IMG/VR virus record: IMGVR_UViG_3300002307_000010
Span: 1 to 38,157 of that record
Length of the DNA stretch: 38,157 bases
From: a virus
Taxonomy: Duplodnaviria; Caudoviricetes
Direction: 5' to 3' (one strand)
Both the position numbers and the translations under genes were made by a program. Within the stretch, counting starts at the first letter, position 1; each line of letters starts with the position of its first letter. Positions 15,314 to 28,520 of this stretch are shown in pieces. Under the pieces are notes generated by a model. That model had not been told where the DNA came from. It made no database searches and saw only the letters and a program-made list of their open reading frames with translations.

Positions 15314-15949
15314 TTAACTTAACGTACAACGTGCATTGATTATCCATAGATCATTGAGAATACGTGACACTTCAGCAAACGTGTAACCCACTGTTGCGTT
15401 TTGGAAAAGTGGATCATTTAGTGCTGCTGGTCTATACAAAAAGCGTGCTGAAAAATTATCCTGATACACGCATGCTAATGCTTCCATACCTTGAATAAAC
15501 ACGTTATAAACGTTATTACCCAACATTGATGCATTTGGCGATATAGATCCCACTGATGATAACATAAAGCGAACGTTGTTCACTGCACCCCACTCACTTT
15601 GAAGCACATCATTAGCATTCGGGTAGTTCCACTTAGCAATAAATCCATTCAAACTATCTAAGTCTTTAGATAAATTTGTATGACCTAATGCTAGGTATGC
15701 ATCACGCACAGGACCGGTCCCGAACTTATCCATACCCTCCTGTTTACCCAGGATCATCCAGGCATCGTTTGACAGTAGATTAGATGTAACATCTGAAATA
15801 TCTGACAAACTAAGATTAGTTGGAAGATCTCCATTGGTACCACCAGTGCAGTTATAGATCGAAGCTGTTGCTGCCAACATATCTCTCGTCAGCTGATCTT
15901 CGGTCATACGCATCGATAGTCCCAATAGTTGGGCAGTTTCATTGAGAAC
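15314..15949 (-). CDS. Major capsid protein, exon 2 (N4 gp56-like)
   Basis: VLNETAQLLGLSMRMTEDQLTRD...SEWGAVNNVRF...DPLFQNATVGY; in frame after the intron's terminal G at 15950. Confidence 0.9.
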   Translation of the reverse strand, partial: VLNETAQLLGLSMRMTEDQLTRDMLAATASIYNCTGGTNGDLPTNLSLSDISDVTSNLLSNDAWMILGKQEGMDKFGTGPVRDAYLALGHTNLSKDLDSLNGFIAKWNYPNANDVLQSEWGAVNNVRFMLSSVGSISPNASMLGNNVYNVFIQGMEALACVYQDNFSARFLYRPAALNDPLFQNATVGYTFAEVSRILNDLWIINARCTLS

Positions 15950-16701
15950 CGTTCTGTTACTTTTATGACCTATTGCTAGGCGGGGAAGCTCTTCGGCATT
16001 CCCTCACGAGGTTTCCTCTCGTGTTCAGACTGTCGCATACCTTTGCAGGTCTTTCTCACTCAGTCGTTCAGCGTAGACTTTTTCATATCGTTCGTTTATA
16101 CTTATATAGTTATAATCGTTCGATAGAGTAAAGGATTTATCATGGCCAAAGTAGTTATCTTTAATAAAGATCAAACCGTTACACAAATCGCGTATCTTGC
16201 GGGCATAGTTGATGGAGAAGGTTGCTTTTATCTTGGCCAAGTTAAACAAGGCAAGTATGGAAGCGGTTTTCAATTTCATTCTATGCTTAAAGTTACGAGT
16301 TGCGATGAAGTACTGATATTGTGGCTTGAGAATGTTTTCGGTGGACAAAAAGATTCCCGATATAGATGGACCAGCAAACAAGCGTTTACTAGACCTATAT
16401 ACAACTGGCAAGCAACTGGTGAGATGCTTGATTATATATGCCCACTTATTCTTCCCTATCTCATTATTAAAGATTACCAATGCAAGGTTATGATGCGTTA
16501 CAGATTGACCAGCAAGAACATCGGAAGCAAAAGACTGCCCGAAGACATTATTGCTAAACGTCTTGAACTGATTACTGAAATGCGAAATCTTAACTCTCGT
16601 TGGCATAATCATCCTTTAAAAAATCCTTCGCCCTTGTCGCCTTAGCATATGCCGTAGGTTTCCAAGTCAATCAGAGAAAGTTTATAGACCCCATTCATTT
16701 T
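15950..16701 (-). mobile_element. Group I self-splicing intron (752 nt) in the major capsid gene
   Basis: P1 GACCCU/GGGGUC with U.G at the 5' splice site; P10 GAAU/GUUC; P3 CUUUCUC/GAGAAAG; P7 GACUG/CAGUC; P8 and P9 GNRA hairpins; terminal G. Splicing restores ...QNQDP|VLNET... in phase. Confidence 0.92.
16142..16645 (+). CDS. LAGLIDADG homing endonuclease, antisense to the intron
   Basis: AYLAGIVDGEGCF motif, ILPYLIIK downstream; RBS AAGGA at 16131; TATAAT at 16111. Confidence 0.92.
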   Translation: MAKVVIFNKDQTVTQIAYLAGIVDGEGCFYLGQVKQGKYGSGFQFHSMLKVTSCDEVLILWLENVFGGQKDSRYRWTSKQAFTRPIYNWQATGEMLDYICPLILPYLIIKDYQCKVMMRYRLTSKNIGSKRLPEDIIAKRLELITEMRNLNSRWHNHPLKNPSPLSP

Positions 16702-17010
16702 AGGGTCTTGGTTTTGAAGCGTTACTTGGTTATTAATGGCTATATAAAGGCCATAAAAACTCATCGTAGCATCAATATCTACGCGGTATATTGGAGTCGC
16801 TGGAGGAGTTGCACCACTTGGTCCCAATGGGACTGGAGCAGTAGGCAATCTATCGTAGCGAGCCATACGTAGAGTTCTTCCACCTTTGCTCGGTAAACGT
16901 TTTGATAGTGCACCTAGCTTATGAATAAGATTAGGTGTACGTACCGATAAAAGTACATCATCAAACGTTTGTTGAACGGGCGCCGGCAGAGATGTGGTAG
17001 TAGTTATCAT
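16702..17010 (-). CDS. Major capsid protein, exon 1 (spliced product about 314 aa)
   Basis: ATG 17010 behind GGAG; MITTTTSLPAPVQQTF...LPSKGGRTLRMARYDRL...FYG, typical of an N4-gp56-like MCP N-terminus. Confidence 0.9.
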
Positions 17011-17054
17011 ACACACACTCCTAAAAAATAAACGAACATAGTTTTGTTTACACT

Positions 17055-17184
17055 ATGAGTTGGACGAATACTCATTGCGTCCTGGAGTGGCGAGTTCCCA
17101 TGCGCCGATAAGAAAAGTAAAAGATACGTTGGCTGACGAGGCCTGAATGCGTCATGTAGTTAACGAGACTACGTTGCGTTAACT
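17055..17184 (-). ncRNA. Array of four mini H-type pseudoknots in the capsid 5' leader
   Basis: Units at 17184-17156, 17154-17131, 17106-17083 and 17082-17055 share [P1]CG-CA-N7/8-UCG[P1']-[P2'], with compensatory changes in both stems. Confidence 0.75.
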
Positions 17185-17187
17185 GAT

Positions 17188-17217
17188 AGTATAGTAAAAT
17201 TTAATGGTAAAATACAA
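17188..17217 (-). promoter_or_regulatory. Promoter for the capsid leader and operon
   Basis: TTGTAT-18 bp-TATACT; the predicted start (about 17181-17184) coincides with the first pseudoknot. Confidence 0.6.
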
Positions 17218-17260: not shown

Positions 17261-17298
17261 AAGGAAAGAGGTCCGGGGAAAAAAGGAACCCAGACCTC
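17261..17298 (-). terminator. Intrinsic terminator after the scaffold gene
   Basis: GAGGUCUGGG/CCCGGACCUC 10-bp stem followed by UUUCCUU. Confidence 0.7.
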
Positions 17299-17345
17299 CG
17301 TGTGATGTATTAATGGAAAATAAGAACCATTAACGCACGTATGTT

Positions 17346-18068
17346 CTATTGTTGGAATTGATCTGCATATTGAGAAGATTGACGAATAATATCAGCAGCT
17401 TGTTTTTCAGATAAAATACGTCTTCCTATATTGCTCACTTCACCCAATGGTGATTCACTCACTTGGGGTGCTACGTTAGAAGCAGAACGAGGTTTTGATT
17501 GATTTTGTGCTACTCTTCTATCAATATCTTCATAATTATTATCATTATTATTATTAGTAGCAATGCCACTATTTTTAATCAATTCATACGCTGTATAACC
17601 TTTATCATACAGATCAGGATTTGAAAGAATAGTTCTATAAAGTGCAGGTTTTTGTTGCTGTAATTTTCTTAAATTATCATTATTAACCACACTATCAAAG
17701 TCACTAAACTGACCTTTAAGTCTCATCTCTGCATTGGTTTCATTGTATTCTGAGAATCTTTTTTCATTATTCTCAAGTTTTTTCTCAAGTTTCTTAATAT
17801 ATTTCTTGAGATGTTTACCCTCAACATACGTATCATCACTGATACCAAGATCATCTTCATCTTCAATCTGTATCTTTGTTGTTTGTTGTTGATTCATATT
17901 CTGTTGAATATATCGTTCATACTCAGCAGCTCTACGCTCTGCTGCTTCAGCACGTTCTCTTAAGTTCTGTGTGTTTCTATCACGTTTAGATTCTTGAGTA
18001 GTTTCTTGTGATTGCTCAACCACTTGTTCTTGTTGTGGTTGTGTATCATTATTTAGTTCGTCAAACAT
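17346..18068 (-). CDS. Capsid scaffolding protein
   Basis: Acidic, Gln-rich coiled coil directly upstream of the MCP. Confidence 0.75.
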   Translation of the reverse strand: MFDELNNDTQPQQEQVVEQSQETTQESKRDRNTQNLRERAEAAERRAAEYERYIQQNMNQQQTTKIQIEDEDDLGISDDTYVEGKHLKKYIKKLEKKLENNEKRFSEYNETNAEMRLKGQFSDFDSVVNNDNLRKLQQQKPALYRTILSNPDLYDKGYTAYELIKNSGIATNNNNDNNYEDIDRRVAQNQSKPRSASNVAPQVSESPLGEVSNIGRRILSEKQAADIIRQSSQYADQFQQ

Positions 18069-18881: not shown

Positions 18882-19478
18882 ATGAAGAAGATTTTAGGTC
18901 TATTATTAGTTACATCGTCTATTTTTTCAATGCAATTACAACTCACCGATAAGCGTCATAATTTTCAAGAGAAGTTATATAGGCAAGACATTCTGAAACA
19001 TGCTGATATACAGAAGGTATCAACATCAGTATTTGTTCCGCATGCATTAGGATCAGCTCAACTTTATCATGGTCCAAAAGGCTTCTATGTGCACCATGAT
19101 AATAAAATGAAGCGTATTCAGAAGTGTTTTACTGATCCAGTCATTCGCAATATTACATCACAACAAGCAAATGACTTTCATACAGTTGGACATTTTCATC
19201 TTACTCAAATGAATGATGGTGAATATTCACTCAAAGCTAAACCACGTCTCATTGGTGGTGGTGCGGGTGGCGCAACGGTGGGATTCTATGTAGGTAAATT
19301 TGCAACATATTTTGTGTGTCATGGTGCAATTATCGTAGTTTCTGCTCTTACTGGGCCAGCTGCTGGTGCTACTTTTGCAGGTTTAGAAGCATGTTTTGCA
19401 CCACATATAGAATTAGCAAGCCAAGCAACGTCTCTTGCTGGTGGAATAATTGGTGCCGTGGCAACTGGTCCTGTATGA
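18882..19478 (+). CDS. Secreted protein with RLxGG motif and hydrophobic Gly/Ala C-terminus (moron; toxin/bacteriocin-like)
   Basis: Signal peptide MKKILGLLLVTSSIFS; KPRLIGGG followed by a glycine-zipper/hydrophobic tail; opposite strand to the late operon, with TG-TATAAT near 18750 upstream. Confidence 0.6.
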   Translation: MKKILGLLLVTSSIFSMQLQLTDKRHNFQEKLYRQDILKHADIQKVSTSVFVPHALGSAQLYHGPKGFYVHHDNKMKRIQKCFTDPVIRNITSQQANDFHTVGHFHLTQMNDGEYSLKAKPRLIGGGAGGATVGFYVGKFATYFVCHGAIIVVSALTGPAAGATFAGLEACFAPHIELASQATSLAGGIIGAVATGPV

Positions 19479-28034: not shown

Positions 28035-28520
28035 TCATTCCTTAATCACACCCAAGATATCACTCTCTTTAACAACAACATGACCATCTTCATGTGCTTG
28101 CACTGTACGATCATCAAAATAGACCACATCACCGATTTTAATGGCAGATGATGTATCTGATCCTGTAGAAATTATTGTGCCTATAGGGCGATTTTTGGAT
28201 GTATCTTCGGAGATTATAATTCCTGATGTTGTTTTATCTATTTCAGTGTTTAGTTTTATAATAACACGAGTACCAAGTGGGCGAAGTTTATCAAACATAT
28301 TAGTCCTCTTCTTTCTATATGATTCATATTGACACTGTATACACTGTTTAGTTCCACTATTTCTTAATTTACTGCCATTGCATGATGACTTTATTCCACA
28401 CTCACATAAACATATCCAAAAAGCAGATCCTTCATGAAGTTTTTTAAGATCTCTTTTTATAACAGTCCATTTTCCAAACTTCATTCCTGTTATATCTATA
28501 AATCGCTTCATAATTTTCAA
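28035..28520 (-). CDS. groES: Co-chaperonin GroES (28035-28298) fused in frame to an N-terminal CxCxCG/CxxC domain
   Basis: LRPLGTRVII, TTSGIII, IKIGDVVYF, VKESDILGV; internal ATG at 28298 has its own GAGGA RBS. Confidence 0.85.
   Translation of the reverse strand: MKIMKRFIDITGMKFGKWTVIKRDLKKLHEGSAFWICLCECGIKSSCNGSKLRNSGTKQCIQCQYESYRKKRTNMFDKLRPLGTRVIIKLNTEIDKTTSGIIISEDTSKNRPIGTIISTGSDTSSAIKIGDVVYFDDRTVQAHEDGHVVVKESDILGVIKE

What the first reader, a model, noticed from the sequence alone, without database searches (positions are those of the whole stretch)
17055..17184. Four covarying mini-pseudoknots in tandem form the 5' leader of the major capsid mRNA: candidate new structured-RNA system
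Seen: on the minus strand the leader reads A UAACG-CA-AC-GUAGU-CU-CGUUA-ACUAC, B UGACG-CA-UUCA-GGC-CU-CGUCA-GCC, a 24-nt U-rich linker, C GGCG-CA-UGGG-AACU-CGCC-AC-UCCA, D GGACG-CA-AUGAGU-AUU-CGUCC-A-ACUCAU. Each 24-29 nt unit keeps an invariant core (CGCA-N7/8-UCG). Both stems differ in sequence between units yet stay paired, which indicates selection on an H-type pseudoknot rather than simple duplication. The units sit as two abutting pairs. A terminator (17261-17298) insulates the array, a promoter (TTGTAT-18-TATACT) would start transcription at unit A, and unit D ends about 35 nt before the capsid RBS. I do not recognise this as a known riboswitch or ribozyme; the likeness to the fluoride riboswitch P1 is only superficial. 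Inference: a multivalent protein- or ligand-binding platform controlling capsid output (analogous to T4 gp32 pseudoknot autoregulation), a nuclease-resistant 5' cap, or processed small RNAs acting as ToxI-like decoys or virion RNAs.
Basis: partly seen in the sequence, partly recalled or inferred. Interest (0 to 1): 0.9.

Follow-up and report, generated by a model that had tools for sequence, protein, structure and literature searches.

The report
Tandem mini-pseudoknot switch for capsid synthesis
Four 25-base repeats predicted to fold as small RNA knots lie just before this phage's capsid gene and are kept with compensating changes across three phage capsid lineages; they likely bind spare scaffolding protein, which would open the ribosome site and match coat supply to scaffold supply.

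Summary
Confirmed and wider than reported. The four units are real. Arrays of 2-8 units precede the capsid gene in 49 of 52 relatives and in two further capsid lineages; both stems covary; Rfam has no match. The family core is G-U-A...U-C-R (GCA is this genome's variant). Each unit reads best as a short hairpin with an anticodon-like 7-nt loop paired to the strand before it. Unit 1 starts at the predicted transcription start. In the sister subclade and the NF033394 lineage a unit's 3' half alternatively forms a covarying helix over the Shine-Dalgarno site, so folded units would mean translation ON; this is not supported in the window's own subclade. In other phages units cover the scaffold gene's start, where folding would mean OFF. 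Rare core variants switch in all units of a genome together, and scaffold Asn32Ser arose ten times, always with variant arrays (post hoc, p about 0.06). Best model: free scaffold binds the units to balance coat and scaffold (0.5). No binding or expression data. The scan noted this motif twice before on other DNA; three Fremin 2023 candidates could not be excluded.

The parts
17267..17299 (-). terminator-like hairpin (11 bp, 11-nt loop, weak U tail) between scaffold gene and capsid promoter
   Evidence: z -3.25, 0 of 200 shuffles; not flagged; a fold of -10 kcal/mol or better lies here in 70 of 92 relatives (no control)
17212..17217 (-). -35-like hexamer TTGTAT
   Evidence: 3 of 6 matches, so not listed
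17188..17193 (-). -10-like hexamer TATACT, 7 nt before the first core base of unit A
   Evidence: 6-8 nt in 58 of 93 relatives
17156..17182 (-). unit A
17131..17154 (-). unit B
17107..17130 (-). U-rich linker, length not conserved
17083..17106 (-). unit C
17055..17082 (-). unit D; its 3' stem strand ACUC (17060-17057) is complementary to GAGU of the Shine-Dalgarno region
17037..17057 (-). predicted hairpin CAUAGU/ACUAUG that overlaps the end of unit D and belongs to the predicted alternative (OFF) fold
17017..17022 (-). Shine-Dalgarno AGGAGU
16701..17010 (-). major capsid gene exon 1 (N4-gp56 family, TIGR04387)
15314..15950 (-). major capsid gene exon 2 (approximate 5' edge)
17346..18068 (-). 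putative scaffolding protein, proposed reader; motif K/R-E/D-x-N32-x-x-x-L-R37 in a predicted helix 25-63
   Evidence: gene position; (scaffold label rests on position, helical model and weak matches only)

Best explanation
The four units are a conserved tandem RNA element predicted to fold as mini-pseudoknots at the 5' end of the capsid message, and they likely work as binding sites for unassembled scaffolding protein, which would hold the knots folded, keep the ribosome-binding site open and so raise coat synthesis when scaffold is in excess. Shown by sequence comparison: the two covarying stems, the position at head genes only, the start at the predicted transcription start, the competing Shine-Dalgarno helices in two lineages, the genome-wide switching of core letters. 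In this window the OFF fold is predicted but is not backed by covariation.
For: Structure: second stem 3.82 bp with its own tail against 2.08 with swapped tails (467 calls chosen on the first stem alone; best of 500 swaps 2.22); 141 units, core pairs 88-95% paired, 36-60 double changes each, 0 of 500 shuffles as high. Location: 372 hits of 18 bits or more in 180 capsid leaders against 16 elsewhere, most of them displaced arrays or scaffold starts; a metagenome DNA pattern that fixed only the first stem gave 55 loci, 52 directly before this capsid family (50 by tblastn, 2 by eye). Switch: locking the knots lowers the cost of opening the Shine-Dalgarno site by 2.4 kcal/mol in subclade N4b (control 0.14; n 45) and 2.9 in the NF033394 lineage (control 1.3; n 25); the competing helices beat swapped partners (N4b -8.3 against -6.0, n 45; NF033394 -14.4 against -9.9, n 58) and show compensatory changes. 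Opposite wiring: in L473 a unit, and in L478 a unit-like fold read by eye, covers Shine-Dalgarno and AUG of the scaffold-like gene, and further units lie in frame in the first 40 codons there and in L492 and L493. Reader: rare core letters agree within genomes (19 concordant pairs against 0.56 expected, maximum 5 in 2000 permutations); three more all-GCA arrays, whose third unit was not in the search pattern; scaffold column 32 is the top of 74 columns (7 of 10 against 5 of 56, p 1e-4), the best of 299 capsid columns p 0.04; Ser32 arises 10 separate times on the scaffold tree and all 10 arrays are variant, against 6 of 57 others. Precedent: P22 scaffold is autogenously regulated (PMC5529062, passage).
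Against: No binding, probing or expression data. In the window's own subclade N4a the coupling to the Shine-Dalgarno site is not supported: 0.57 against control 0.37 kcal/mol, p 0.73, n 48; own -6.4 against swapped -6.6, and 24 of 48 folds against 20.1 (maximum 25) with shuffled strands. The window itself has Asn32 with an all-GCA array, one of the 6 exceptions. The variant trait was defined after seeing the data; independent pairs give only p 0.06-0.125 (6 pairs), 2-3 pairs on the capsid tree; the share of units with A after GNA tracks other scaffold columns better than column 32. Short-tract duplication or conversion can also homogenise units (L102, L381), and the concordance is not significant in the other two lineages. 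Scaffold profiles of the three lineages are not significantly alike (hhalign probability 3-26%). The junction C.A opposition (155 of 425) would be a U.G pair on the other strand. P22 genes 3-10 hold no unit.
Confidence: 0.5

Rival explanations
1. The units are constitutive stabilisers: they bury the 5' end and form obstacles to 5'-dependent decay (RppH and RNase E scanning, or RNase J), and the last knot simply keeps the ribosome site open, with no ligand.
For: Unit 1 begins 6-8 nt after the -10 hexamer in 58 of 93 leaders. Pseudoknots impede RNase E scanning in proportion to their length (PMC9943677, passages). In the NF033394 lineage the array follows the scaffold stop codon, where a processed end could be protected.
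Against: Does not explain the evolved competing helices over the Shine-Dalgarno site, units over the scaffold start, or genome-wide switches of core letters tracking a scaffold residue. In the same paper an 11-bp knot was only a modest obstacle and protection grew with length; these knots have about 8 bp.
Confidence: 0.2
2. A protein reads the units, but it is another one: free coat protein, portal, or a host factor such as ribosomal protein bS1.
For: The arrays are always at head genes, and only terminase and capsid proteins are detectably shared between lineages. The window and L135, both GCA, share capsid substitutions at 6 of 7 conserved positions. U-rich linkers suit bS1 (recalled).
Against: The capsid substitutions are not seen in the three N4b GCA genomes (L513: none in 218 covered residues), so shared ancestry explains them; no capsid column tracks variants. 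A host factor would not be expected to vary between close phage relatives.
Confidence: 0.15
3. Each unit is a very small riboswitch aptamer for an ion or metabolite, used in tandem.
For: Conserved core letters plus mutually exclusive Shine-Dalgarno helices are the riboswitch layout.
Against: Of 55 metagenome pattern hits none with both stems lay before a recognisable cellular gene (52 capsid, 1 unresolved, 2 GC-rich chance hits in coding sequence); core letters vary by phage genome; no Rfam match. Host chromosomes were not scanned with the profile.
Confidence: 0.07
4. The element acts on the opposite strand, as single-stranded DNA, or as released small RNAs (decoys, virion RNAs).
For: Opposite-strand geometry would be closer to a classical H-type knot, and the junction C.A would be U.G there.
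Against: G.U outnumbers A.C on the sense strand in the stem cores (81 against 48 in the second stem, 11 against 1 in the first); the promoter points into the array; units are wired to sense-strand ribosome sites and occur inside coding sequence.
Confidence: 0.05
5. The units are put-like RNA antiterminators for the late operon.
For: They are the first thing transcribed from a promoter ahead of a long same-strand gene run.
Against: No promoter-like site was found next to the array in 28 NF033394 and 6 third-lineage leaders, and the demonstrable wiring is to translation.
Confidence: 0.03

Closest known systems
STAXI motif (Rfam RF01728; Weinberg 2010, PMC2864571, passages read)
   Same: A small pseudoknot repeated two or three times in tandem; function unknown
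   Different: STAXI lies near DNA-handling genes of Enterobacteriales and often has UUCG loops; no cmscan match here at E up to 10 or in ten related loci; these arrays lie at capsid and scaffold genes
Phage P22 scaffolding protein (gp8) autoregulation (PMC5529062 passage; the 1985 papers were not held)
   Same: Unassembled scaffold is proposed to act on mRNA; P22-like portal in this phage; units over the scaffold start in some relatives
   Different: No unit in P22 genes 3-10; here a defined repeated RNA fold, and predicted activation of coat rather than only self-repression
Phage Mu Com / mom translational activation (recalled, not read)
   Same: A phage protein is needed to release a Shine-Dalgarno-hiding helix
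   Different: Com is a dedicated zinc-finger regulator with one site; here no dedicated regulator is shared between lineages and the sites are tandem knots
T4 gene 32 leader pseudoknot (mentioned in PMC10690425, passage)
   Same: A phage leader pseudoknot as the nucleation site of a phage protein
   Different: Single classical H-type knot with a long 3' loop (recalled), repression; here 2-8 knots with a 0-2 nt 3' linker
Fluoride riboswitch, crcB motif (features recalled)
   Same: GGCG...UCGCC first stem with a loop that pairs downstream
   Different: Its long linker with a second hairpin and the metal-binding segment are absent; no Rfam match
Candidates DNAVirus_3698, DNAVirus_865 and DNAVirus_5613 of Fremin et al. 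2023 (PMC10690425, table rows read)
   Same: Unnamed structured RNAs of 62-86 nt within 25 nt of capsid_maj_N4 (37 and 4 cases) or capsid_maj_Podo (52 cases) genes
   Different: Their alignments could not be read (files too large or without text), so overlap is neither shown nor excluded; the passages read describe no such repeated pseudoknot or switch

Membership tests
Any Rfam 15 family | Covariance-model score at the gathering threshold or a significant E-value | tested here: not met
   0 hits in the window; only two chance hits, off the array, at E up to 10; 0 hits at E up to 5 in ten related loci
STAXI (RF01728) | Pseudoknot repeated in tandem | tested here: met
STAXI (RF01728) | Match to the model | tested here: not met
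   one search was also blank but its controls did not ring, so it adds nothing
STAXI (RF01728) | Neighbouring genes for DNA-handling proteins | tested here: not met
   arrays lie at capsid or scaffold genes
Classical H-type pseudoknot (gene 32 type) | Two stems in S1-L1-S2-L2-S1'-L3-S2' order | tested here: met
Classical H-type pseudoknot (gene 32 type) | 3' loop long enough to cross the shallow groove of stem 1 (recalled rule) | tested here: not met
   L2,L3 are mostly 1,1 or 2,2 nt (266 of 423 units)
YUNR / anticodon-like U-turn loop | Y-U-N-R sequence in a 7-nt loop closed by C.A or U.A (features recalled) | tested here: met
   purine after UC in 317 of 321 units; pyrimidine before it in 323 of 425; C.A or U.A in 238 of 425. 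U and C were fixed by the descriptor; a few units have C for U
YUNR / anticodon-like U-turn loop | Backbone turn after the U | not testable with these tools
   needs a structure
Fluoride riboswitch | Long linker with second hairpin and metal-binding segment between stem 1 and the pseudoknot strand (recalled) | tested here: not met
   linker 0-2 nt
Riboswitch in general | Expression platform mutually exclusive with the aptamer fold | tested here: inconclusive
   met in N4b and NF033394 lineages, not supported in the window's subclade
Riboswitch in general | Binds a small ligand without protein | not testable with these tools
   needs probing
Protein-controlled translational operator (P22 gp8, Mu Com, T4 gp32 kind) | Direct binding of the protein changes translation | not testable with these tools
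   only indirect co-variation
Fremin 2023 candidates 3698, 865, 5613 | Match to their covariance models | not testable with these tools
   alignment files unreadable

The most novel reading that the evidence does not exclude
A widespread phage assembly-stoichiometry sensor: unassembled scaffolding protein reads a tandem array of anticodon-like mini-pseudoknots through its N-terminal helix, switching coat translation on where the array precedes the capsid gene and its own translation off where the array covers the scaffold start, with a simple residue-to-base code (Asn or Ser at position 32 against the letters of the GUA linker) that co-evolves phage by phage.
Probability: 0.4. Interest if true: 0.9.

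Novelty: new variant of a known kind. Interest (0 to 1): 0.75.

Why it matters
How tailed phages keep coat and scaffold in proportion is mostly unexplained; P22 scaffold autoregulation is reported, but I found no defined RNA site for it in the papers searched. This motif supplies a concrete, very small RNA element with two opposite wirings and a candidate protein residue, and it occurs in prophages whose capsid proteins are on record in cultured bacteria (Rhodoferax koreensis, Roseateles depolymerans), so it can be tested with reporters. A 24-nt protein-gated knot with an unusual short-linker topology would also be a new structural motif and a compact regulatory part.

Tried and rejected
A dedicated shared regulator: none found among six genome records. 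Loose descriptor for location tests: too many AT-rich chance hits, replaced by a log-odds profile. G.U versus A.C test for the second stem was confounded by the junction C.A and redone by position. RNAalifold on a MAFFT alignment of 26 N4b leaders found only the first stem, because the Shine-Dalgarno helix was out of register; tested by swap instead. Cultured phages: no canonical unit of 17 bits or more in the stretches fetched from eight (Mx8, Mx9, Mae-Yong1326-1, BUCT555, ppBjS10J-1, vB_Pun_Y3, StenR_269, Rollin) or P22; Mx8 and Mx9 have structured leaders of another form. Host of the window phage: not found; the GTDB scan gave two hits in MAG bins of unrelated phyla and two weak hits. Expression: no RNA holder listed. 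STAXI search with controls was blank everywhere. Scaffold: no Pfam, PHROG, NCBIfam or PDB family; only weak matches to annotated scaffolds. Literature: ten searches gave no description of this motif; subscription journals and two Fremin supplement archives were not searchable. No complex was folded, since RNA cannot be a partner.

Full report
Observation. The window is a complete 38,157-base phage record with direct terminal repeats, a P22-like portal and an N4-gp56 family capsid gene (TIGR04387) that starts at 17010 on the minus strand and is split by an intron. Rfam gives nothing at gathering scores, two chance hits off the array at E up to 10 and nothing in ten related loci.

Conservation. 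Capsid exon 1 recruited 80 IMG/VR loci. After removing leaders over 85% alike, 49 of 52 protein-recruited leaders carry two or more units; the other three carry altered cores by eye (background 0.007 hits per 285 nt; the profile was trained on these leaders). DNA patterns that fixed only the first stem were used as an independent route. In metagenomes 55 loci were returned: 52 lie directly before a capsid gene of this family (50 by tblastn, 2 by eye), 1 is unresolved and 2 are GC-rich chance hits. The viral scans led to two more capsid lineages, a 431-aa protein (phrog_14242; below the NF033394 cut-off) and NF033394 proper. There 7 of 16 and 25 of 61 non-redundant leaders have two or more profile hits, 47 of 61 at least one; the profile misses many variant cores in these lineages. 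Over 180 non-redundant loci, 372 hits of 18 bits or more fall in capsid leaders and 16 elsewhere; most of the 16 are arrays displaced by an inserted gene or units at the start of the scaffold-like gene. In six genome records the hits of 17 bits or more are confined to this one place (two records are incomplete).

Structure. With units chosen on the first stem alone (467 calls), the second stem has 3.82 Watson-Crick pairs with its own tail, 2.08 with tails from other leaders (best of 500 swaps 2.22) and 2.28 with tails from the same leader (442 calls). On 141 fixed-length units the three core pairs of the second stem are 88-95% paired with 36, 60 and 37 double changes (the first stem was selected for pairing, and related sequences are not independent). 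The family core is three pairs plus G-C, then U (C or A in some genomes), A, and U-C-R on the 3' side. The two linkers next to the second stem are short and equal (1,1 or 2,2 nt in 266 of 423). I therefore read a unit as a 3-5 bp hairpin with a 7-nt Y-U-C-R-N-N-A loop, like an anticodon or YUNR loop (features recalled), whose last four loop bases pair with the strand just before the hairpin; this is inference. Wobble pairs favour the sense strand modestly (81 G.U against 48 A.C in the second stem core, 11 against 1 in the first stem); the junction C.A (155 of 425) would pair better on the other strand.

Position and wiring. In 58 of 93 N4-family leaders the first paired base lies 6-8 nt after a -10-like hexamer, so the transcript is predicted to begin in unit 1; no such site was found in 28 NF033394 or 6 third-lineage leaders, where the array follows the scaffold stop. 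In subclade N4b the last unit's 3' strand also starts a long hairpin whose other arm is the Shine-Dalgarno region; 39 of 46 score 5 or more of 10, with compensatory changes, mean 6.84 against 5.78 swapped (maximum 6.36). In the NF033394 lineage a different helix does the same, often from the second-last unit and enclosing the last: -14.4 against -9.9 kcal/mol swapped, n 58. Forcing the knots lowers the cost of opening the site by 2.4 kcal/mol in N4b (control 0.14, n 45), 2.9 in NF033394 (control 1.3, n 25) and 3.3 in the third lineage (n 4). Against this, the window's own subclade N4a shows no significant effect (0.57 against 0.37, n 48; swap and shuffle tests negative), although the window's own predicted fold pairs ACUC of unit D with GAGU of the site and the cost falls from 4.8 to 3.1. 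In L473 a unit, and in L478 a unit-like fold read by eye, covers the Shine-Dalgarno site and AUG of the scaffold-like gene; these and L492, L493 have further units in frame within 40 codons; L473 and L478 have none at the capsid gene.

Reader. Among 97 N4-family leaders rare core letters agree within a genome far more than chance (19 pairs against 0.56; 5' bulge 23 against 1.6; 2000 permutations), while the stems stay specific to position; this is not significant in the other two lineages. A pattern for two GCA units returned 39 loci; four are true arrays, three of them new, and in each the units outside the pattern are also GCA. Capsid substitutions shared by the window and L135 are absent from those three, which argues against coat. 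In the upstream protein, taken as the scaffold from its position, helical model and weak matches, column 32 stands out: Asn to Ser in 7 of 10 genomes with non-GUA cores against 5 of 56 (top of 74 columns; best of 299 capsid columns p 0.04). On a scaffold tree built without the motif region (67 rows; L213, L378 and L128 left out as mis-called, too distant or truncated) Ser32 needs 10 changes for 10 genomes, all with variant arrays, against 6 of 57 others; independent pairs on well-supported branches go the same way in 4.8 of 6 and never the other way, p 0.06-0.125. The trait was defined after looking, the window is itself an exception (Asn32, followed by Thr where most have a hydrophobic residue), and the A-after-GNA share alone tracks other columns better. 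Scaffolds of the three lineages are not significantly alike, and no other protein besides terminase and capsid is shared between lineages.

Mechanism. The simplest account of both wirings is one ligand that signals scaffold excess: folded units would open the coat site and close the scaffold site. Burial of the 5' end may be a second function in any case; pseudoknots slow RNase E scanning according to length (PMC9943677, passages).

Known systems. STAXI shares the tandem layout only (PMC2864571, passages). P22 scaffold autoregulation is the functional precedent (PMC5529062, passage; the 1985 paper was not held; PMC2115188 gave only the citation), but P22 has no unit in genes 3-10. Mu Com, T4 gp32 geometry and the fluoride aptamer are recalled comparisons. 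Fremin et al. 2023 list three unnamed candidates before these capsid families (passages and table rows); their alignments could not be read, so partial prior detection remains possible. A 2026 preprint on genome language models was checked by passages and is unrelated. Ten literature searches found no description (listings only for the other papers). The scan's own notes hold this motif twice on other DNA, seen after my switch tests were done; they do not name a reader.

Verdict. A real, uncatalogued and widespread phage RNA motif with good comparative evidence for a translational switch in two lineages, suggestive evidence for scaffold as reader, and no experimental support yet. New variant of a known kind; interest 0.75.

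Noticed in passing
window 15951-16700 (-), ORF 16142-16645 (+): The capsid gene is split by an intron (junction QNQDP|VLNE) that Rfam does not detect; a LAGLIDADG-like ORF (Pfam E 6e-4, under the cut-off) lies inside it on the opposite strand. Many relatives have insertions near capsid codons 11-12, 31-35 or 96-102.
   Followed up: partly
L381 about 2499-2690: Eight units in a row, seven of them near-identical 24-nt repeats: a recent expansion or an assembly effect.
   Followed up: no
L419, L421, L431, L444, 570-690 nt before the capsid start: An extra ORF, HNH-like by eye, lies between the array and the capsid gene; the array stays attached to the scaffold stop codon.
   Followed up: partly
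L473, L478, L492, L493, L397, scaffold-like gene starts: Units inside the reading frame encode G-V-x-x-x-S-P, so this peptide in scaffold N-termini may be a by-product of RNA structure.
   Followed up: partly
L492 3150-3185 and L493 3145-3180: A shared hairpin (CGCC/GGCG) followed by UA directly before the scaffold Shine-Dalgarno site.
   Followed up: no
L003, L006, L009, L010, L016, L061, L070-L072, leaders: Some units carry a hairpin inserted in the linker after GUA, one with a GAAA loop.
   Followed up: partly
N4a leaders, e.g. L092, L021, L090, last 35 nt before the capsid start: A separate hairpin is predicted over the Shine-Dalgarno site and start codon, independent of the units; it may be the real gate in this subclade.
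   Followed up: partly
window 17346-18068 (-), residues about 207-225; L135: The conserved scaffold C-terminal motif RVGDYDRR is changed in the window and L135, together with several conserved capsid positions: probable coat-scaffold co-evolution.
   Followed up: partly
window 28035-28520 (-): Phage-encoded Cpn10 (GroES-like) domain.
   Followed up: no
window 18882-19478 (+): A 198-aa ORF on the opposite strand with a signal-peptide-like start and no family match; it resembles secreted proteins of Dependentiae by recall only.
   Followed up: no
L125, L114, L106 leaders: Arrays with altered cores (GCUA, GUUG, GUUA) that the profile misses but that keep both stems by eye.
   Followed up: partly
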